A stretch of DNA of 64,000 nucleotides from an uncultured bacterium (GTDB lineage Bacteria > Patescibacteriota > Patescibacteriia > Patescibacteriales > UBA12465). Shown here piece after piece: positions 2,880-55,204 of the stretch (positions within the stretch are counted from its first letter, which is position 1; each line of letters begins with the position of its first letter). Below the pieces are notes generated by a model. The model did no database searches, was not told the origin of the DNA, and saw only the letters and a list, made by a program, of their open reading frames with translations. The stretch is from contig OW818634.1 of NCBI GenBank assembly GCA_942492765.1, forward strand, positions 793,159-857,158, written 5' to 3'. The position numbers and the translations under genes are program-made.

Positions 2880-4142
2880 TTAGAACTGTCCTGAACTGCC
2901 GAAGCCGTTGGCTTGGCGCTCGGTCTCATCGACGATCTTTTCTTCGCTTATCTCTAAATCTAGGATAGGCTGGATAAGTATCTGGGCGATTTTTTGGCCG
3001 GGAACGATATTGAGCATCTCTTCGCTGAGATTCTTGACGATGATCTTGATCTCGCCGCGGTAATTAGAATCGATAACGCCGCCCATAGTCTTGATGCCGC
3101 GGAAAGCGACGCCGCTCTTATCCCAGATCAGGCCGGCGTAGCCGGCAGGAATTATCATCCTCACTCCGCTCACTACCAGGTCTTGGCCGTAAGGAGGAAT
3201 GGAGTAGAAATCATTAGCGTATAGATCATAGCCAGCGTCGCCAGGATGCGCTTTTTGTGGCAGCTTGGCCTGCGGATTTATCTTTTCGATTATAAGCTTG
3301 ATCGGAGTCTTGCTTTCTGGATTGATATTTTTTTCTTCCGCCGGTTGCTTGGCAGAAGCTTCATGTTTTTCAAAAATTATCTCCCGATTGTTGACGATCT
3401 GACGGTTGGAGCCGATAATATTGCTGATCGCCTGGAAATCATTATTCTTCTTATTATCGCCGGCGATAATCTTCTTGACCGAGGGCCAGACTAGCGTACT
3501 GATATCTTCTCGGCTCAGAATCTCGCTATTGCGCGTGCAGCTGATGAGTTTGAAATCCGGAAAGCTATTAGCGATTTCCAGATAGATGCGTTCTGCTTTC
3601 TTCAAGTGATCCAGATTGTCTTCATGGATATCATTCTTTTTTCCGGCCCAGTCTTCACGGGCGCGCGCTTTAGCCAGTTTTTGGGATATCTCTGATTCGA
3701 CATGCAAGATAATCGACAAGTCGGGGCGAGGAATCTCAAAAATCTTATATTCCAAGTCATATAGCCAATTGAAGAACACCTTCCGTTCTAATGGATTCTC
3801 GATCTTGCAGCCCTGATGGCCCATGTTAGCGCTAGTGTAGCGGTTAGCGAGGACAATCTTGCCCTCTTTGAGCCATTCCCGGATCTTGAAGCTGGCGTCA
3901 TAACGGTCGACGGCGTAGAAGATCGAGGCTTTGTAAGAATTGACCTCGTCCGCCTGTCCGTATTTCCCGGAGAGATACTCTTCTACCAGTCCAGCCGACT
4001 TGGTATTGTATTGAGGAAAATCAGCGATAGCCACGACATAACCCTCCGCTTCTAGGCGGGTTTTAAGCAATTCCAGCTGCGTGGTTTTTCCGCTGCCGTC
4101 GGTGCCGTCGATGACGATGAATTTTCCTGAAATCTCTTGCAT
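2880..4142 (-). CDS. tmk/dut: Thymidylate kinase fused to dUTP diphosphatase (Tmk-Dut fusion)
   Basis: N-terminal half has Tmk P-loop FIVIDGTDGSGKTTQ and DRY motif. C-terminal ~135 aa has dUTPase motifs DAGYDLYA, GVIDSNYRGE, NGFGSSG. A ~70-aa linker joins them in one uninterrupted frame. Confidence 0.9.
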   Translation of the reverse strand: MQEISGKFIVIDGTDGSGKTTQLELLKTRLEAEGYVVAIADFPQYNTKSAGLVEEYLSGKYGQADEVNSYKASIFYAVDRYDASFKIREWLKEGKIVLANRYTSANMGHQGCKIENPLERKVFFNWLYDLEYKIFEIPRPDLSIILHVESEISQKLAKARAREDWAGKKNDIHEDNLDHLKKAERIYLEIANSFPDFKLISCTRNSEILSREDISTLVWPSVKKIIAGDNKKNNDFQAISNIIGSNRQIVNNREIIFEKHEASAKQPAEEKNINPESKTPIKLIIEKINPQAKLPQKAHPGDAGYDLYANDFYSIPPYGQDLVVSGVRMIIPAGYAGLIWDKSGVAFRGIKTMGGVIDSNYRGEIKIIVKNLSEEMLNIVPGQKIAQILIQPILDLEISEEKIVDETERQANGFGSSGQF

Positions 4143-49063: not shown

Positions 49064-49435
49064 ATGAAAAAATTTCTTTTTTCTGGATTATTAATTTTTG
49101 TCTTCGTCTTTAGTTTCAACATCGTTTGGGCTCAGACGGGTACTGGCGGTTCAAACACCGGCGGCTCCGGCATCACCTTATCTAACCCCCTTGGCGACGT
49201 CACCTCCCCGCAAGCCTTTATCGGCAAGATCATCAATTCCATTCTCGGCGTGGTTGGATCCCTGGCTCTCCTCATGTTCGTCTATGGCGGCCTGACTTGG
49301 ATGACCTCTTCGGGCAGTCCGGACAAGGTTAAGAAAGGTCGGGATACCTTGCTTTGGGCAGCTATCGGCCTAGTCGTGATCTTTTCCGCTTACGGCTTGA
49401 CCCGCTTCATTCTCGGTACGGTCGTCACGCAATAG
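49064..49435 (+). CDS. TrbC/VirB2-like pilin-family protein
   Basis: Signal peptide, NPL motif, two hydrophobic helices flanking YGGLTWMTSSGSPDKVKKGRD; pattern of the small T4SS-pilin-like family common in CPR genomes. Confidence 0.6.
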   Translation: MKKFLFSGLLIFVFVFSFNIVWAQTGTGGSNTGGSGITLSNPLGDVTSPQAFIGKIINSILGVVGSLALLMFVYGGLTWMTSSGSPDKVKKGRDTLLWAAIGLVVIFSAYGLTRFILGTVVTQ

Positions 49436-49467
49436 TATTTAAGCTAGCTTCAAGAAAATATCGGACT

Positions 49468-49490
49468 CCGGCCTGTTTTCAGGCCGGTTT
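49468..49490 (+). terminator. Terminator after the pilin gene
   Basis: ccggcct / aggccgg stem followed by TTT. Confidence 0.5.
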
Positions 49491-49517
49491 GACAATTACC
49501 GATATTTTTTTTAATAT
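49489..49517 (+). promoter_or_regulatory. Sigma70-type promoter for tRNA-Tyr (and probably RNA copy A)
   Basis: TTGACA - 17 nt - TAATAT, 18 nt upstream of the tRNA 5' end. Confidence 0.65.
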
Positions 49518-49534
49518 AGAAGAGCAATCATCAA

Positions 49535-49618
49535 GGGTCGATACCAAAGCGGTCAACTGGGGCAGACTGTAAATCTGCTGGCCTTGCGCCTTCGTTGGTT
49601 CGAATCCAACTCGGCCCA
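49535..49618 (+). tRNA. tRNA-Tyr (anticodon GUA), long variable arm
   Basis: Acceptor gggtcga/tcggccc, anticodon stem gcaga/tctgc with loop cuGUAaa, variable arm tggccttgcgccttc, T-loop ttcgaat; no encoded CCA. Confidence 0.9.
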
Positions 49619-49636
49619 CTCTTTGAGATTTCAGTC

Positions 49637-49837
49637 ATTTTAAAAATCACCTCCGAAACCCGATCATTCGGGATATTAGCAATTATTTTTTGGACATGGC
49701 GTTGCTTCGTTAATATCGAAGCCATATCCGAGAGATAGTTATGTCACCTTTTTACGGCTTCGCTAGATTTAACTCGTATTCGGCCATAGTCGACCGGATA
49801 TCTTGGGGGTGATTTTTAAAATATGTTTCGCTAGTAA
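49637..49837 (+). ncRNA. RT-associated structured RNA, copy A (stand-alone, terminator-ended)
   Basis: 18-bp terminal stem: 49637-49654 pairs with 49805-49822. Internal hairpins cccga-tcat-tcggg and cttcg-ttaata-cgaag. Homologous to copy B; carries ATGTTT followed by an early stop. Confidence 0.6.
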
Positions 49838-49859
49838 GAGCCTGTTCAGGCTCTTTTTT
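49836..49859 (+). terminator. Rho-independent terminator ending RNA copy A
   Basis: aagagcc-tgttca-ggctctt followed by a T-run. Confidence 0.7.
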
Positions 49860-49895
49860 GTTGGGCGGTTTCCTCGGGTTTTTGCGCTGGTGAAG

Positions 49896-49924
49896 TTGAT
49901 AAAAAAGACGGATTAGGCTAAAAT
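49896..49924 (+). promoter_or_regulatory. Sigma70-type promoter for RNA copy B / RT operon
   Basis: TTGATA - 17 nt - TAAAAT, ending ~15 nt before the copy B 5' stem arm. Confidence 0.6.
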
Positions 49925-49939
49925 ATTAATGTGCTAGTT

Positions 49940-50129
49940 ATTTTAAAAATCATCCTCAAAACCCGATCATTCGGGATATTAGCAATTATTTTTCGGACAT
50001 GGCGCTAGCTTCGTTAATATCGAAGTCGTATCCGAGAAATAGTCAGAAGGGGTATCTGTTAAATTTAATTCATATCCGGCCGCAGCCGACCGGTTATCTT
50101 GGGGATGATCTTTAAAATATGTTTAGTAA
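49940..50129 (+). ncRNA. RT-associated structured RNA, copy B (5' leader of the RT gene)
   Basis: Terminal stem: 49940-49957 pairs with 50101-50118 (one mismatch, one G-U). Same internal hairpins as copy A. 3' arm ends 1 nt before the RT ATG. Confidence 0.6.
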
Positions 50130-51324
50130 AATTTTGTGTTACTCTAATTTCGAAGCCGCTTATCTGGAGATAATTGAACAGTTTTCTAATGATCGCCGCA
50201 ACTTCAAGTATCATGGCCTGGATAATATCTTTCTGCGCGATCTTGATCTCAAATCTCGGAAGATAATCAAGTCGGCTCTAGCCGATCTCTCGCAGAAGAA
50301 GGAGATTGAGCCGGCTCTCTGCGTTTCCATCCCTAAGCCTAATAAGCCGGGCGAGCATCGGGAAATCTTTATCTACAACCTGAAAGAAAGGATCAAAGCT
50401 CAGGCTATCTACCGCATCGTCCTGCCGGAGTTCGAGAAGATCTTTTCCGACAGGCTTTTTTCATATCGGCCAGGCAAGCCGCCTTATCTCGCCGCGCGGA
50501 TATTCTGCCGCCGCTATCGCCGCTCTTTTAAGAGCGACCAAGCGCTGGTGATAGACTTGAAGAATTATTCCGACAGAATAGATCGAGAGAAGATGTTTGC
50601 GCAGCTGCAGGCGATATTTCCCGATAAGAAAGTCTTGGAGCTCTTGCGCCTCTTCATTTTCAACAAGGTCTATCGCGATGGCGTCTGTCTAACGCCTGAT
50701 AAAGGCTTGGTGCAGGGCGTGCCGCTTATCGCTTTGTTCGCTAATCTTTATCTGACCGACTTGGACTTTAAATATCAGGCTGAAGCCGATTTCTATATCC
50801 GCGTCGGCGACGATATTGCCTTATTGGATCCGGATTTAGAAAAGCTCCGGAATATATTGGCGGAGATTTCTGAAGATATTGCCGCGCGCGGACTGGAGAT
50901 CAACCAGAAGAAATTATTCATCGGTCCGGCTAAGGAGAGGTTCTCCTTCCTCGGCTACGCCTTTAATTCCGGCCTGATCGGCTTGGAACCGGGCTTCATC
51001 AGGCGTATCGAGATGGAATGGAAGAGGCTCTTGATCTACCAGCACTCGGCAGAATGGGCTAAGCGGCGGATAATCATGAAGATGATGAGCCGGCCGGAGA
51101 AAAGCATCAACGATCAGTTTCAGAAGATCGTTAGGGATAAATGCCAGATCAATGACTCGGATCAGATCAAGAAGGTGTCGGAGAAATTCTTTTCGATCCT
51201 GACCAAGTTCTTCTATGAGCATTATTCGCCGCGTAATCGCCGCCGCTTAGAAGGCGACTTGAAAGAGTTCGGCATAGTCTCCCTTTATAATACCTATAAG
51301 AATTTTCATTATGATAGACGATAA
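50119..51324 (+). CDS. Reverse transcriptase (stand-alone, unclassified prokaryotic RT)
   Basis: RT motifs: IPKPNKPGEHREI (1/2), SYRPGKPP (3), LVIDLKNYSDRID (A), GLVQGVPLIALFANLYL (B'), YIRVGDDIALL (C), FSFLGYAF (E); 401 aa. Confidence 0.85.
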   Translation: MFSKILCYSNFEAAYLEIIEQFSNDRRNFKYHGLDNIFLRDLDLKSRKIIKSALADLSQKKEIEPALCVSIPKPNKPGEHREIFIYNLKERIKAQAIYRIVLPEFEKIFSDRLFSYRPGKPPYLAARIFCRRYRRSFKSDQALVIDLKNYSDRIDREKMFAQLQAIFPDKKVLELLRLFIFNKVYRDGVCLTPDKGLVQGVPLIALFANLYLTDLDFKYQAEADFYIRVGDDIALLDPDLEKLRNILAEISEDIAARGLEINQKKLFIGPAKERFSFLGYAFNSGLIGLEPGFIRRIEMEWKRLLIYQHSAEWAKRRIIMKMMSRPEKSINDQFQKIVRDKCQINDSDQIKKVSEKFFSILTKFFYEHYSPRNRRRLEGDLKEFGIVSLYNTYKNFHYDRR

Positions 51325-53023
51325 GAATCAGATAAGCTTATTGAGGAAGGTCCGGATGCGGCGCGTCAAACATCAGACGCAGGAATCCGAGGACCTCAAT
51401 AAGGATTATATCCGCGCTTTTTTCAATAAGCATAAGCTCCTTATCTTGGGGACTCTCGCTTTATTCCTGACCCAAGGAATCATCGAAACCTTTCTCGTCA
51501 TCGTCGGCCGAAGCCGGCTGGCTTATGACGGCGGCCGGACGGCGGGAACGCTCTTCTGGCAGCTCTTGATTATTCTGCTCACGTTATTCGTCGTCAATTC
51601 CTTTTTCTCTATCAAACAGGAGAAGACGATCGTCGTTATTTTTGTTAACAATCTCCGCCGCCGCATCTTTAGGAATTATCTGGGTAAGGCGCCGGAGAAG
51701 ATGAGAGCGGAGGGGCAAGCCGATCTCGTCGCTAAGATCTCTTATCATCTGCCGCTCGTCTCGATGGGCGTCTCTAATTCTTTTTTCGGTCTGGCGAGAT
51801 GGGTTATCTACTTGGCTTCAGCCTCGGTCGTCGCGCTTTTAGCCGGCCTTAACGTATCTCTCATCGCTGCCTTCTTCATTGTATTATCAGTCATCATCGC
51901 CTTAGCTTCATATTTCACAGTTAAGCGCTATGTTTCGCAGGAAGTCACCTTCTTCTCGCAGATTATTAAGCACATCAATCTCAGCTTGTCGGAAAAATAT
52001 TTTTCCAAAGGCTTTAATCTGGAGCCCGTGGTCATGAAGAAGTTCGACCGCCTGGTCGATTTCGATTCTATTTTCAGGATACGCCGCGACCTCTGGATGA
52101 AGATGGGCTTCAAGATAGTCTTCGCTATCGTTCTGGTCGTTTCTGTATTGAGTAACGCTTTTTACGGCGGGCTGGCTGAGAAGATAAATCTGATTCGGCC
52201 GGAGCTGAAGTTTTTGTATGTCTTCCTTCTGATTTATCTGTCGCGCATCATTACTGAATCCCTGCGTATCGGTCTTTATTTCTTCCCGGCCAAGCTGGGC
52301 TTGTCGCTCACTAATGTGCCGCTCGAAAAATACTTGCATCGCAGCAATATCAAGAATATCAAGAGCGAGATTGCTTTCTCTAGCCAGAAGACGAAACTGT
52401 TCAGGCAGGGCAGGTATTATCGAAACCTTGAGCTCCGTTTCTTAAGAGGCGGACGTTATCTGTTCTTCGGACCCAATCTCTCGGGTAAGACTGTTTTAGC
52501 CAAGTTATTTTTCGGCGGCGAGACTTATAACTCTAAGGCGCTGAAAGTAAAGATAGACGGGCAGAGGTTGGATTTCTATGAGTACCAGAGGAAATTCAAT
52601 CAGGCTTATTATTTCGATCCTAATTTTAATTCCCAAAAGAGCCTGATTGAGATAATTACCGGCTCAGACAGGGAAGAGACCGCTTTCCCGGAAATCGAAG
52701 AAGCCTTGCGGATAATGGCTGCTCAGCCCGCGATCTCCAACTTAGTTTCTCCGAAGAAGAATTTTAATCTGTCGGCTGGCGATATCTGGGATAATCACTT
52801 GACCGCCTTTGCCCTGCATGCGGCGCATTGCTTGGTCGTAAAACCCGCGCTTATCATCATCGATAATCTCTGGCTTGATCTGGATTACCCGGGTATCAAG
52901 GAGATGTTGAGCACTATCAGTCGGGAATTGCCAGAGTCCATCATCATCGTTTTTGCCCATAAGGATATTGATAATTTAAATTATGATAAACGTTATGACC
53001 TGGAAAAAAATCTTAAATTTTAG
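51311..53023 (+). CDS. ABC exporter-like TMD-NBD protein with degenerate ATPase motifs
   Basis: ~6 TM helices of the type I exporter pattern. NBD has Walker A GPNLSGKT, signature LSAGD (vs LSGGQ), Walker B LIIIDN (no catalytic Glu), H-loop FAHK. Start overlaps the RT stop by 14 nt. Confidence 0.7.
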   Translation: MIDDKNQISLLRKVRMRRVKHQTQESEDLNKDYIRAFFNKHKLLILGTLALFLTQGIIETFLVIVGRSRLAYDGGRTAGTLFWQLLIILLTLFVVNSFFSIKQEKTIVVIFVNNLRRRIFRNYLGKAPEKMRAEGQADLVAKISYHLPLVSMGVSNSFFGLARWVIYLASASVVALLAGLNVSLIAAFFIVLSVIIALASYFTVKRYVSQEVTFFSQIIKHINLSLSEKYFSKGFNLEPVVMKKFDRLVDFDSIFRIRRDLWMKMGFKIVFAIVLVVSVLSNAFYGGLAEKINLIRPELKFLYVFLLIYLSRIITESLRIGLYFFPAKLGLSLTNVPLEKYLHRSNIKNIKSEIAFSSQKTKLFRQGRYYRNLELRFLRGGRYLFFGPNLSGKTVLAKLFFGGETYNSKALKVKIDGQRLDFYEYQRKFNQAYYFDPNFNSQKSLIEIITGSDREETAFPEIEEALRIMAAQPAISNLVSPKKNFNLSAGDIWDNHLTAFALHAAHCLVVKPALIIIDNLWLDLDYPGIKEMLSTISRELPESIIIVFAHKDIDNLNYDKRYDLEKNLKF

Positions 53024-54197
53024 TGATAGGAATAATCGCGGGCGGAAAGCCCGGTTAATTATTCTGCCGCTCGTGATTTTGGGACTGGTAGCATACGCGG
53101 GCATGATGATATTCCGCTTGTATCAGGAGTCAGTCGGCCGCCAGATCGCGCCAGCAGAGATGATCAAGATCAACGAGCCGTTCTCAGGCAGTGCGCATTT
53201 TAACGACAAACTCGGCCAGGATGATTTTTCTCAGCTGATCGTTAGCAGCATTGATCAGGCCGAGAAGACCGTTGATATCGCCGTCTATTCCATGGATAGC
53301 CAGGACATCCGGGACGCTCTCTATCGCGCGGCCAAGAGAGGCGTCACGGTTAGCGCCATCTTCAGCGATAAGCGCCAAGAGATAATCGTGGCGCTTTTCA
53401 AGGATAAGCCGGATAACGTTAAGATCGGCTTCATTCCTTCGGATATTTCCAGCTACATGCATCATAAGTTCATGTTGGTCGACCGCGGTTTGAGCCGCCA
53501 GAAATTATTTTTCTCTTCTTATAATTTTACTTATTTCCAAGGCAAATATGACCCGAGCTTCATCCTCGAGACCGGCCGTCCGGAATTAGTAGCCGTCTTT
53601 GGCAAAGAATTCGACCGCCTAGTCATCGAGCTCAATGATAAGGTGAAGCAGCCGCCCGTCAATCCTTTTGCCGCCCGGATAGAATATACCGACGGCTTCT
53701 TGGAAGTTTGGTTCGCGCCGGGAACGCCTAAACATAATATCAAGAGCCGGATGATCGGCTTGATTCAGAGCTCCACGAACAATATCAAGGTTTTGATCTG
53801 GTATCTGACCGATAAAGAGATTGCCGCTGAATTAGCGGAAGCGTCTCGGACCAAGCCGGTCTGTCTAGTGACTGACGATTTTAATTGGCTCGCTCCAGGC
53901 TCGGCTTTCCCGATCCTAGAAGCTCAGAGGGCCAGGCAGAAATTAGATAAGCTTGAGCTTATCCAAGACAGCCAGCGGAACGCGGAAGTAGGCCGGCTCA
54001 TGAACGATACTGGCTTCAATTCTTTCTTGCACCAGCATCTTTTGATAATCGATGATAAAATTGCTTTGTTTGGAACTAATAATTGGAGTTTCGGCGGCTT
54101 CTTTACTAACAGCGAATCAATCATGATTACTGACATTAAGAGCCTAGTCGACGCCTTTAGAGGCTCATACCAGGCTAACTATGACGCTAATAAATAA
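52983..54197 (+). CDS. Membrane-anchored PLD/HKD-superfamily protein (nuclease- or phospholipase-like)
   Basis: N-terminal basic stretch plus single TM. HKD-1 HHKFMLVD..SSYNFT. HKD-2 HQHLLIIDDKIALFGTNNWS (Lys replaced by His). Overlaps the previous gene by 41 nt. Confidence 0.75.
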   Translation: MINVMTWKKILNFSDRNNRGRKARLIILPLVILGLVAYAGMMIFRLYQESVGRQIAPAEMIKINEPFSGSAHFNDKLGQDDFSQLIVSSIDQAEKTVDIAVYSMDSQDIRDALYRAAKRGVTVSAIFSDKRQEIIVALFKDKPDNVKIGFIPSDISSYMHHKFMLVDRGLSRQKLFFSSYNFTYFQGKYDPSFILETGRPELVAVFGKEFDRLVIELNDKVKQPPVNPFAARIEYTDGFLEVWFAPGTPKHNIKSRMIGLIQSSTNNIKVLIWYLTDKEIAAELAEASRTKPVCLVTDDFNWLAPGSAFPILEAQRARQKLDKLELIQDSQRNAEVGRLMNDTGFNSFLHQHLLIIDDKIALFGTNNWSFGGFFTNSESIMITDIKSLVDAFRGSYQANYDANK

Positions 54198-54322
54198 TCC
54201 TGTATAATATTGCTATATGCCTATAATCAACCCTGACAAGATCGGTGTCGGTATGGTGAAAATTTTCGCCATTGAGTTCGTCGTGCTAGCGATCGTCACC
54301 CTTGTCTTGCTCGCCCTATAAT

Positions 54323-55204
54323 ATGCCTGAGCTTCCCGAGGTAGAAACTATCCGCCGCGATCTGGCGGCTATCATGCTGGGCTCTAAAATTATTTCCGTG
54401 GACATCATGTCTCCGGGGAGCGCTTCGCATTCCGCGGCTTTTTTCAGGAAGGAACTCATCGGCCGGAAGATAATCGAAGTCGGTCGCCGCGGCAAGCTCC
54501 TGATGTTCCGCCTTTCGCCGAGCGCCGGCAAGAAGATGGATTATATCATCGTGCACCTGAAGATGACGGGTCAGTTGATATTTTCTGGAAATAAAGAGGA
54601 GGTCGCCGGTGGGCATAGCCATAATGCTAAAGCAGAATTGAAGAATTTGCCGAACAAGCACACGCGCGCAGTCTTGAAACTCGCGGACGGCGGAAAATTA
54701 TTCTTCAACGACATGCGCCGCTTCGGCTATATCAAGTTAGTTTCTAAAAAAGAGCTGGAAGATGTCTTGGCGAGAAGCTATGGCCCAGAACCGCTAACTC
54801 CAACCTTTACTTTTCCGGCTTTCTTGTACGCTCTCAGCCGCACGAACGTGAAGATCAAAGCCGCGCTTCTGAATCAGAAGCTGATTGCGGGGCTCGGCAA
54901 TATTTATGCCGATGAAGTCCTCTGGGAAGCGCGCCTGCGGCCGGACCGCCCGACTCAGAGCCTGAAACCGGCGGAACTGAAGAAGCTCTATAATGCTATC
55001 AATCGGATAATAAAGCTAGCTATCAAGAAGCGGGGCACGACTTTCAGCGATTATGTCGACTCCCGCGGCCGCAGCGGCAATTTTTCCAAGTTCTTAAAAG
55101 TCTATGGCCGGGGCGGGGAAAAATGCCCGAATTGCCGTAATCCTCTCCAAAAAGCCAAAATCGCCGGACGCGGCACGCATTATTGCGCTATTTGCCAAAA
55201 ATAA
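54323..55204 (+). CDS. mutM: Formamidopyrimidine-DNA glycosylase
   Basis: Start set at MPELPEVE (catalytic N-terminal Pro); H2TH region; C-terminal zinc finger CPNC..CAIC. Confidence 0.9.
   Translation: MPELPEVETIRRDLAAIMLGSKIISVDIMSPGSASHSAAFFRKELIGRKIIEVGRRGKLLMFRLSPSAGKKMDYIIVHLKMTGQLIFSGNKEEVAGGHSHNAKAELKNLPNKHTRAVLKLADGGKLFFNDMRRFGYIKLVSKKELEDVLARSYGPEPLTPTFTFPAFLYALSRTNVKIKAALLNQKLIAGLGNIYADEVLWEARLRPDRPTQSLKPAELKKLYNAINRIIKLAIKKRGTTFSDYVDSRGRSGNFSKFLKVYGRGGEKCPNCRNPLQKAKIAGRGTHYCAICQK

What the first reader, a model, noticed from the sequence alone, without database searches (positions are those of the whole stretch)
49637..50129. Two copies of a ~190-nt RNA element with a long terminal stem supported by compensatory substitutions
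Seen: copy A (49637-49837) and copy B (49940-50129) align over their whole length. The 5' ~100 nt and 3' ~60 nt are highly similar in my manual alignment. A central ~25-30 nt segment is essentially unrelated (A 49737-49765, B 50039-50060). In each copy the 5' end pairs with the 3' end over 18 bp, extendable by 2. Between copies, A C50:G09 becomes B U53:A05 (full compensation), and two further positions switch between C:G and U:G. The hairpins cccga-tcat-tcggg and cttcg-ttaata-cgaag are identical in both. Copy A ends in a strong terminator after ATG TTT CGC TAG. Copy B continues into the RT ORF (ATG TTT AGT AAA...). Inference: this is a conserved scaffold with a swappable central cassette, as expected for a template or specificity region of an RT-associated RNA. 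The end-joining stem recalls retron a1/a2 repeats and the ncRNA architecture used by DRT2-type RTs.
Basis: partly seen in the sequence, partly recalled or inferred. Interest (0 to 1): 0.82.

Follow-up and report, generated by a model that had tools for sequence, protein, structure and literature searches.

The report
Paired RNA genes beside reverse transcriptase
Two neighbouring copies of a ~185-nt, tightly folded non-coding RNA belong to a previously undescribed RNA family that always sits in front of a reverse-transcriptase / ABC-exporter-like / phospholipase-D-like gene trio in Patescibacteria, which points to a new RNA-guided or RNA-templated reverse-transcriptase system.

Summary
Copy A (49637-49822) and copy B (49940-50118) align throughout. 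Identity is 80-100% in the 5' ~100 nt, 40-55% in the centre and 75-85% in the 3' ~60 nt. Both fold with an 18-20 bp end-joining stem (z -5.8 and -4.8).

The element is not a local accident. A homologous RNA abuts the start codon of the RT gene in nearly all of ~100 related Patescibacteria loci. On 32 homologues, 94% of cells form a standard pair, against 35-48% in slid controls. Rfam 15 has no match.

The operon (group-II-intron-like RT, divergent ABC exporter with Walker-B D-N, membrane-anchored PLD) is conserved in 59 of 59 genome loci.

The centre is a lineage-variable hairpin domain. Tandem copies that differ mainly there recur in at least four other loci, and one pair is retained across two species.

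Copy A is structurally intact (45/46 pairs). It has no promoter of its own, follows tRNA-Tyr by 17 nt and ends in a terminator. The closest relatives lack it.

A template or specificity role for the centre is plausible but untested. The element is not a retron, DRT2, DGR or group II intron.

The parts
49489..49517 (+). Sigma-70-like promoter (TTGACA-17-TAATAT) of tRNA-Tyr. It is the only promoter-like site upstream of copy A.
49535..49619 (+). tRNA-Tyr (GTA). Copy A begins 17 nt after its 3' end, so A is probably co-transcribed with it and released by tRNA 3' processing (inferred).
49637..49822 (+). ncRNA copy A (orphan copy). 45 of 46 model pairs are intact.
   Evidence: (145.7 bits)
49637..49654 (+). 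Copy A P1 5' strand. It pairs with 49805-49822.
49659..49672 (+). Copy A P2 hairpin CCCGA-TCAT-TCGGG.
49673..49679 (+). Copy A pseudoknot 5' strand ATATTAG. It pairs with loop 49710-49716.
49705..49721 (+). Copy A P4 hairpin CTTCG-TTAATAT-CGAAG. The loop is the pseudoknot 3' strand. The hairpin is nested in P3 (49681-49694 with 49727-49740).
49741..49765 (+). Copy A variable central segment, unrelated to that of copy B.
49776..49801 (+). Copy A P6 hairpin.
49805..49822 (+). Copy A P1 3' strand.
49823..49834 (+). ATG TTT CGC TAG. The first two codons match the conserved RT N-terminus (Met-Phe), which marks copy A as derived from an ncRNA-RT junction.
49836..49861 (+). Intrinsic-terminator-like hairpin plus T-run that ends the tRNA-Tyr/copy A unit.
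49896..49924 (+). Promoter-like site (TTGATA-17-TAAAAT) for copy B and the RT operon. It is conserved in L001.
49940..50118 (+). ncRNA copy B (operon-proximal copy). 43 of 46 model pairs are intact. Parts: P1 49940-49957 with 50101-50118; P2 49962-49975; pseudoknot 49976-49982 with 50014-50020; P4 50009-50025; variable centre 50045-50061; P6 50072-50097.
   Evidence: (139.4 bits)
50119..51324 (+). Reverse transcriptase, 401 aa, group-II-intron-like. The catalytic motif is RVGDD.
51311..53023 (+). Divergent type-IV ABC exporter-like protein, 570 aa, with a transmembrane domain and a nucleotide-binding domain. Walker A is present. Walker B is D-N, with no catalytic Glu.
52983..54197 (+). PLD-superfamily protein, 404 aa, with an N-terminal TM anchor. 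HKD1 is HxKx4D. HKD2 is HxHx4D.

Best explanation
Both copies are genes for a previously undescribed, pseudoknotted ~180-190-nt non-coding RNA. [quoted passage not shown] The RT is encoded in a conserved ncRNA-RT-(ABC-exporter-like)-(membrane PLD) module of Patescibacteria.

Shown:
- The RNA family is real, strand-specific and conserved in structure. The structure is P1 (end-joining stem), P2, P3, P4 with a loop pseudoknot, a variable central hairpin domain, and P6.
- It is physically tied to the RT gene.
- Copy B is the operon's own RNA, transcribed from the promoter at 49896-49924.
- Copy A is a structurally intact orphan paralogue placed between tRNA-Tyr and a terminator.

Inferred:
- The conserved 5' domain (P2-P4 with the pseudoknot) plus P1 forms the RT-binding scaffold.
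- The 3' half (variable hairpin, the conserved CTCNTTG/ATTTAAT stretch, P6) carries the template or specificity function. The RT would copy part of it into cDNA, as in retrons and in DRT2 and DRT9.
- The two membrane proteins act as effectors.
- Loci with two RNA genes give the same RT two scaffold-compatible RNAs that differ in the central module.
- Copy A most likely arrived by recombination with, or duplication from, a diverged allele of the same system. It carries the first two RT codons, it is about equally distant from B and from L002, and the nearest relatives lack it.
For: RNA family and structure:
- A homologous element lies directly 5' of the RT start in nearly all related loci.
- On 32 sequences, 94.1% of cells are paired against 35-48% when partners are slid. 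39 of 46 pairs have double changes, and no shuffle out of 500 reaches the observed values.
- The pseudoknot is 96.4% paired, and 5 of its 7 pairs covary: ATATTA::TAATAT, ATGCCG::CGGCAT and ATATCA::TGATAT.
- The distant subfamily shows the same architecture, with 33 of 42 pairs compensated.
- Minus-strand CM scores are far lower (29.5 against 140.9 bits in L006), and G:U pairs are frequent. Both point to an RNA read from the + strand.

Linkage to the operon:
- The RT-ABC-PLD operon is present in 59 of 59 genome loci with differing flanks.

Action in trans:
- In L007 an RNA with 46 of 46 pairs intact is separated from the RT by two pilin genes.
- In L106 the RNA lies 1.8 kb upstream of the RT.
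- Copy A has its own terminator.

Two-RNA loci are recurrent and kept:
- Tandem pairs occur in L006, L036, L059 and L081.
- Each copy folds with its own P1.
- L036 and L059 have RTs only 79% identical in nucleotide sequence, yet both keep two copies that are orthologous copy by copy.

Copy A is intact:
- 45 of 46 pairs are formed, and its differences from B avoid or preserve pairs.
Against: - No expression, RNA-end or cDNA data exist for any member, so the template role is purely by analogy.
- The central domain behaves like an ordinary variable peripheral hairpin. Its stem covaries and its loop is conserved within subgroups.
- No copies of either central cassette occur elsewhere in the window. 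No match to an exact motif from the conserved scaffold was found in viral contigs.
- P1 buries the 18-20 nt just before the RT start codon. That would also suit a translational leader.
- Copy A is absent from the closest relatives at the same chromosomal site (L001, 93% RT identity; L064), so it may be a recent neutral rearrangement product.
- The G2L RT characterised so far (G2L4) is described in the paper held here without an ncRNA partner (title and abstract listed).
Confidence: 0.6

Rival explanations
1. The RNA is a cis-acting 5' leader. It would be an autoregulatory RT-binding site or translational switch, comparable to the DIVa site of group II introns. It would control operon expression by sequestering the translation-initiation region in P1. 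Upstream or orphan copies would then be non-functional by-products.
For: - The P1 3' strand ends 0-15 nt before the ATG in almost every locus.
- The RT is group-II-intron-like. Such RTs are known, from the established literature, to bind a stem-loop overlapping their own start codon.
- There is no terminator between copy B and the RT.
Against: - Intact copies are detached from any RT start: copy A with its own terminator, L007 2 kb away with 46 of 46 pairs, and L106.
- Upstream tandem copies are retained across species.
- A ~185-300 nt RNA with a pseudoknot and six helices is far more than a start-codon hairpin.
Confidence: 0.2
2. The RNA family is functional, but the two-copy state in this window is incidental. 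Copy A would be a recent recombination or duplication scar at the tRNA-Tyr hot spot, with no role of its own.
For: - L001 (93% RT identity) and L064, at the same site (pilin, tRNA-Tyr..., RT, Fpg), carry a small ORF where copy A sits and have one RNA copy only.
- Copy A keeps ATG TTT of an RT gene followed by a stop, which marks a truncated ncRNA-RT junction.
- The slot exchanges system variants. The RT is only 71-73% identical in L002 and L064, and in L002 the flanking Fpg is 93% identical.
Against: - Copy A keeps 45 of 46 pairs, more than copy B, despite ~17% divergence.
- It sits in a complete transcription unit of promoter, tRNA and terminator.
- Comparable second copies are maintained elsewhere.
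Confidence: 0.3
3. It is a retron. P1 would be a1/a2, the 5' domain msr and the centre/3' domain msd, giving branched msDNA.
For: - The terminal inverted repeat joins the RNA ends, the RNA lies directly upstream of the RT, and a variable hairpin sits in the 3' half.
- Some sources label homologues 'retron-type RT'.
Against: - The RT profile matches group II intron RTs at 1e-30 but retron Ec86 only at 1e-5.
- The best PADLOC retron model scores 23 bits.
- The linker after the 5' P1 strand is AAAAC, without a conserved G.
- The effectors, an ABC exporter-like protein and a PLD, are not the effectors I recall for the retron types of Mestre et al. 2020 (own knowledge; that paper was not read here).
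Confidence: 0.04
4. The copies are DNA-level repeats: either a DGR template/variable repeat pair, or att-like direct repeats left by an element integrated at tRNA-Tyr.
For: Two direct repeats lie next to an RT gene and a tRNA gene.
Against: - The differences are transitions in both directions plus an unrelated centre, not adenine-specific.
- Neither copy lies in a target ORF.
- The repeats are ~120 nt apart and flank only a terminator and a promoter.
- Covariation with G:U pairs and strand-specific CM scores indicate RNA structure.
Confidence: 0.02

Closest known systems
Retron msr-msd ncRNA with its RT and effector (for example type I-A retron Ec78: ncRNA-RT-ATPase-nuclease)
   Same: - A structured RNA of ~150-250 nt lies directly upstream of the RT.
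- Its 5' and 3' ends are joined by a long stem.
- It combines conserved 5' stem-loops with a variable hairpin.
- The three-gene layout is RT, then a P-loop protein, then a nuclease-superfamily protein.
   Different: - The RT belongs to the group-II-intron-like lineage, not the retron clade.
- There is no conserved branching G.
- A 7-bp pseudoknot is present.
- The P-loop protein is a membrane ABC exporter homologue, not an SMC-like PtuA.
- The third protein is a TM-anchored PLD, not an HNH nuclease.
DRT2 (UG2), DRT9 and DRT3 systems, which are RT plus ncRNA
   Same: An RT with an essential upstream ncRNA that acts as scaffold and template is the general logic proposed here.
   Different: - The RT scores 33 bits against NCBIfam Drt2, whose cut-off is 390.
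- The RNA matches no Rfam family.
- No repeat-junction or homopolymer template feature could be identified.
- Two membrane-protein genes are obligatory neighbours.
Free-standing group-II-intron-like RTs (G2L4/G2L5) and CRISPR-associated RTs
   Same: These are the closest RT sequence relatives: GsI-IIC RT at 1.5e-30, Cas6-RT-Cas1 at 1.9e-26 and G2L4 at 5e-9. The RT is free-standing with no intron ribozyme.
   Different: - A dedicated pseudoknotted ncRNA and the ABC-PLD partners are present.
- The active-site motif is RVGDD.
- The review section on G2L neighbourhoods lists no such association.
Group II intron domain IVa, the RT-binding and autoregulatory site
   Same: RNA structure overlapping the region just 5' of the RT start codon, in an RT of the same lineage.
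   Different: - The element is much larger.
- It is found detached from the RT and in tandem arrays.
- No intron domains V/VI were detected.

Membership tests
Retron | RT belongs to the retron RT clade | tested here: not met
   The best PADLOC retron RT model (RT_II-A) scores 23 bits, against 129 bits for a generic RT model (PDLC01136) and 118 bits for UG26. In PDB, Ec86 matches at 1e-5 against 1e-30 for group II RTs.
Retron | Inverted repeats a1/a2 pair the ncRNA 5' and 3' ends | tested here: met
   P1 has 13 modelled pairs, 95% paired, with 12 of 13 showing compensatory change.
Retron | Conserved branching G next to a1 | tested here: not met
   The linker between P1 and P2 is AAAAC, AACAC or ACAAC in most of the 32 sequences, with no conserved G.
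Retron | Production of branched msDNA | not testable with these tools
   This needs biochemistry.
DRT2 (UG2) | RT is a Drt2 equivalog | tested here: not met
   NF041746 scores 33.4 bits against a cut-off of 390. PADLOC Drt2 scores 33.6 bits.
DRT2 (UG2) | The ncRNA template supports rolling-circle cDNA synthesis | not testable with these tools
   No sequence signature could be assigned.
UG26 (UG/Abi class 2) | Full-length match to the UG26 RT profile and its context (occasional Vsr endonuclease) | tested here: inconclusive
   The match is 118 bits but covers only profile positions 44-294 of 398. The reported UG26 neighbour is YcjD/Vsr, not ABC plus PLD.
Group II intron | Ribozyme domains, especially V/VI, flank the ORF | tested here: not met
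   No Rfam intron hit appears at the gathering threshold or at E<=10. The RT stop overlaps the next gene.
Group II intron | RT/maturase equivalog | tested here: not met
   TIGR04416 scores 119.5 bits against a cut-off of 300. The RT is related but not a member.
Diversity-generating retroelement | A template/variable repeat pair differing at adenines, with the variable repeat inside a target gene | tested here: not met
   Substitutions are of mixed type, the centre is unrelated, and both copies are intergenic.
Any Rfam 15 family | Covariance-model match | tested here: not met
   Only the tRNA matches. Nothing else scores above 21 bits in 49400-50400.
Type IV ABC exporter (gene 2) | ABC_membrane transmembrane domain plus ABC nucleotide-binding domain | tested here: met
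   The profile hits PCAT1, TM287/288, MsbA and ABCB1 at about 1e-10. ABC_membrane is found in 11 of 16 members and ABC_tran in 12 of 16.
Type IV ABC exporter (gene 2) | Catalytic Glu after the Walker B Asp | tested here: not met
   The D is present in 57 of 57 members and is followed by N in 52 of 57 and never by E.
PLD superfamily (gene 3) | Two HxKx4D motifs | tested here: inconclusive
   The first motif is canonical in 54 of 55 members. The second is HxHx4D in 55 of 55. PLDc_2 matches at 6e-29.

The most novel reading that the evidence does not exclude
A Patescibacteria-specific reverse-transcriptase system would use interchangeable ncRNA genes. These share one RT-binding scaffold but carry different central modules. 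A single RT would thus be programmed with several templates or specificities (arrays of 'RNA cartridges'), and its output would be coupled to a catalytically altered ABC exporter and an outward-facing PLD nuclease or lipase. If so, this would be a new class of RT-based immunity or nucleic-acid handling in CPR bacteria.
Probability: 0.2. Interest if true: 0.9.

Novelty: new variant of a known kind. Interest (0 to 1): 0.72.

Why it matters
- RT-plus-ncRNA systems (retrons, DRT2, DRT3, DRT9, DRT10) have each revealed unexpected biochemistry and tools. All characterised ones use retron or UG/Abi RTs.
- Here a group-II-intron-like RT has its own elaborate, pseudoknotted RNA and two membrane partners. 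The system is widespread, with up to two per ~1-Mb genome, in a phylum with few recognised defence systems.
- The recurrent tandem RNA genes that differ in one module give a natural experiment for locating the template or specificity region.
- The covariance model and the ~100 loci collected here make the system directly testable by heterologous expression and cDNA sequencing.

Tried and rejected
- Rfam at the gathering and E<=10 thresholds gave no family.
- DGR reading: rejected on the substitution pattern.
- Retron and DRT2 membership: the RT profiles fail.
- Group II intron remnant: no ribozyme domains.
- Matches to either central cassette elsewhere in the window, with up to 3 mismatches: none.
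- Exact motif GGATATTAGCAAT...CGTTAATATCG in viral contigs: none.
- RT against the phage collection: only <30% identical RTs.
- Element against plasmids: no match.
- Exact-protein look-up of the window's RT: not on record.
- All-against-all column covariation to find further tertiary pairs was dominated by subgroup signal and gave nothing usable.
- Literature searches for UG26, G2L, CPR/Patescibacteria RT, and RT with ABC and PLD found no description of this system.
- One 2026 preprint on coevolutionary mining of non-coding elements was listed but could not be opened, so prior description there cannot be excluded.
- First attempts to align the ABC homologues failed on in-frame stops in L034 and L046.

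Full report
**Observation.**
- The two copies exist as described. Copy A (49637-49822) and copy B (49940-50118) align end to end.
- Identity in 20-column bins is 80-100% over the first ~100 nt, 40-55% in the centre and 75-85% over the last ~60 nt.
- Each copy folds into a multi-helix structure closed by an 18-20 bp stem that joins the 5' and 3' ends. MFE is -65.5 and -58.8 kcal/mol, z is -5.8 and -4.8, and none of 200 shuffles folds as well.
- The compensatory change in the terminal stem and the two C:G/U:G switches are confirmed.
- Copy A is followed by ATG TTT CGC TAG and a terminator-like hairpin at 49836-49855. Copy B runs into a 401-aa ORF.

**Local context.**
- tRNA-Tyr (49535-49619) ends 17 nt before copy A.
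- The only promoter-like sites are one upstream of the tRNA (49489-49517) and one upstream of copy B (49896-49924).
- Copy A therefore sits in a unit of promoter, tRNA-Tyr, copy A and terminator. Copy B heads the operon.
- Downstream genes overlap each other.
  - Gene 1 is an RT with an RVT_1 domain. [quoted passage not shown]
  - Gene 2 is a 570-aa protein.
  - Gene 3 is a 404-aa PLD-superfamily protein with an N-terminal TM helix.
- The 570-aa protein is a divergent type-IV ABC exporter.
  - It has six hydrophobic helices plus a nucleotide-binding domain.
  - Its profile hits PCAT1, TM287/288, MsbA and ABCB1.
  - ABC_membrane and ABC_tran are found in most family members.
- Across the family, the Walker B Asp is followed by Asn in 52 of 57 members and never by the catalytic Glu. 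The second PLD motif is HxH in 55 of 55.

**The RNA is a conserved family.**
- RT homologues number 152 clusters. All whose source names them are Patescibacteria or unclassified bacteria.
- In 59 genome loci the RT-ABC-PLD trio is present every time, while the flanks differ.
- BLASTN, inspection of upstream sequences and a covariance model built from 26 elements find one strong match ending at the RT start codon in most of L001-L028 and L038 (in L007 it lies ~2 kb upstream). Matches in the more distant loci are weaker but full-length.
- The same holds for 55 metagenome loci.
- On a 32-sequence alignment fitted to the model I counted 46 pairs, including a pseudoknot I added by eye.
  - 94.1% of cells are standard pairs, against 35-48% when 3' partners are slid by 1-3 columns.
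  - 39 pairs have changes on both sides.
  - No shuffle out of 500 reaches any observed measure.
- This alignment leans towards the model's structure. However, a MAFFT-only alignment gave the same helices, with 29 of 35 pairs compensated.
- An independent MAFFT alignment of the distant subfamily recovers the same architecture, with 33 of 42 pairs compensated.
- The pseudoknot joins the 7 nt after P2 to the 7-nt loop of P4. It switches as a block between ATATTA::TAATAT, ATGCCG::CGGCAT and ATATCA::TGATAT, and in the distant group between GCATTA::TAATGC, GTATCG::CGATAC and GTGTTA::TAACAC.
- Frequent G:U pairs and much lower minus-strand scores show that the structure belongs to the + strand transcript.
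- Rfam 15 has nothing comparable.

**The central segment.**
- Across the family, the region between P3 and the conserved CTCNTTG/ATTTAAT stretch is a hairpin domain of very variable length: ~20 nt here and up to ~150 nt with three hairpins elsewhere.
- Within subgroups its stem covaries and its loop is conserved, for example GTNTTAAGC in L013, L014, L017, L020 and L022.
- It is therefore a structured, lineage-specific module and not random spacer. That fits a template or specificity role, but it fits an ordinary peripheral domain equally well.

**Two copies.**
- The nearest relatives at the same chromosomal slot (pilin, tRNA-Tyr..., RT-ABC-PLD; Fpg follows in L001 and L002) have a single RNA gene, with a small ORF where copy A lies. 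These are L001 (93% RT identity) and L064 (73%).
- Copy A is about as far from B (roughly 81-85%) as from the element of L002 (84%), whereas B is 94% identical to L001's element.
- Copy A also retains the first two RT codons.
- It therefore most likely derives from a diverged ncRNA-RT junction brought in by recombination at a slot that exchanges system variants. The RT is 71-73% identical in L002 and L064, and in L002 the flanking Fpg is 93% identical.
- Copy A is nevertheless structurally intact (45 of 46 pairs, against 43 of 46 for B). Its differences from B fall at 9 of 92 paired but 31 of 95 unpaired columns.
- Second copies are also recurrent: L006, L036 (the same contig as L086), L059 (the same contig as L088) and L081.
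  - Each copy has its own self-complementary P1.
  - Identity is high in the scaffold and collapses in the centre.
- L036 and L059 have RT genes only 79% identical in nucleotide sequence. Both still keep both copies, upstream orthologous to upstream and proximal to proximal. This argues for selection on two-RNA loci.
- In L007 a perfectly paired RNA is separated from the RT by two pilin genes. In L106 the RNA lies 1.8 kb upstream. The RNA therefore need not be a contiguous leader.

**Mechanism.**
- What is shown is a conserved, strand-specific, pseudoknotted RNA genetically coupled to a G2L-type RT and two membrane proteins.
- What is inferred is an RNP in which P1 plus the conserved 5' domain bind the RT, and the 3' half with the variable module is copied or confers specificity. 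The ABC-like protein and the PLD would be effectors.
- By the positive-inside rule the PLD domain would face outward (inference).
- The ABC protein probably binds ATP but hydrolyses it poorly (inference).
- The main rival is a cis-acting translational leader, because P1 buries the nucleotides before the ATG. Detached and tandem copies weaken this rival.
- A second, non-exclusive rival is that copy A is a neutral recombination scar.

**Comparison and novelty.**
- The architecture recalls retrons (end-joining stem, RNA-RT-P-loop-nuclease order) and the DRT RNA-plus-RT systems. Every membership test on the RT and on the branching G fails.
- No paper I could search describes an RT-ABC-PLD system or this RNA. 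One possibly relevant 2026 preprint could not be read.
- I therefore file it as a new variant of the known kind 'RT with cognate ncRNA and effectors'. Interest is high, because the RT lineage, the RNA fold, the effectors and the host phylum are all new for this kind.

Noticed in passing
L007:2794-5992: Three tandem paralogues of a type-IV-pilin-like gene (N-terminus KKAFTLIELLVVIAIIGILA). The ncRNA (3808-3987) lies after the first, and two more are wedged between the ncRNA and the RT.
   Followed up: partly
L060:1, L061-L063:1, L066:1: Several metagenome contigs, including one of 126 kb, end inside the ncRNA or 51 nt upstream of it. Assemblies may break there because the element is repeated.
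   Followed up: no
L009+L030, L016+L043, L036+L044, L054+L055: Single small MAGs carry two complete, strongly diverged ncRNA-RT-ABC-PLD systems. In PHAI01000003 both lie on the same contig.
   Followed up: partly
window 49064-49435 and 54302-55204; L001, L002, L064: The same chromosomal slot (T4SS-pilin gene, tRNA-Tyr, ..., fpg) holds RT systems only 71-73% identical in L002 and L064, while in L002 the flanking Fpg is 93% identical. This suggests cassette exchange at a hot spot.
   Followed up: partly
L034:2922-4622, L046:7196-8908: The ABC-like homologues contain one in-frame stop each under table 11. Either they are pseudogenes or these genomes use an alternative genetic code.
   Followed up: no
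window 50788-50808 (RT residues ~224-230): The RT active-site motif is RVGDD (Y-x-R-V-G-D-D) across the family, instead of the YADD of group II intron RTs.
   Followed up: partly
window 50738-50880: A weak covariance-model hit (21.5 bits, E 0.059) lies inside the RT ORF. It is probably chance.
   Followed up: no
L002, L007, L008, L012 and others (record titles): Many MAGs that carry this Patescibacteria-type system are titled 'uncultured Gammaproteobacteria'. L058 is titled Flavobacteriaceae, and its sequence upstream of the RT start is nearly identical to that of L057. These are likely mislabelled or mis-binned.
   Followed up: no
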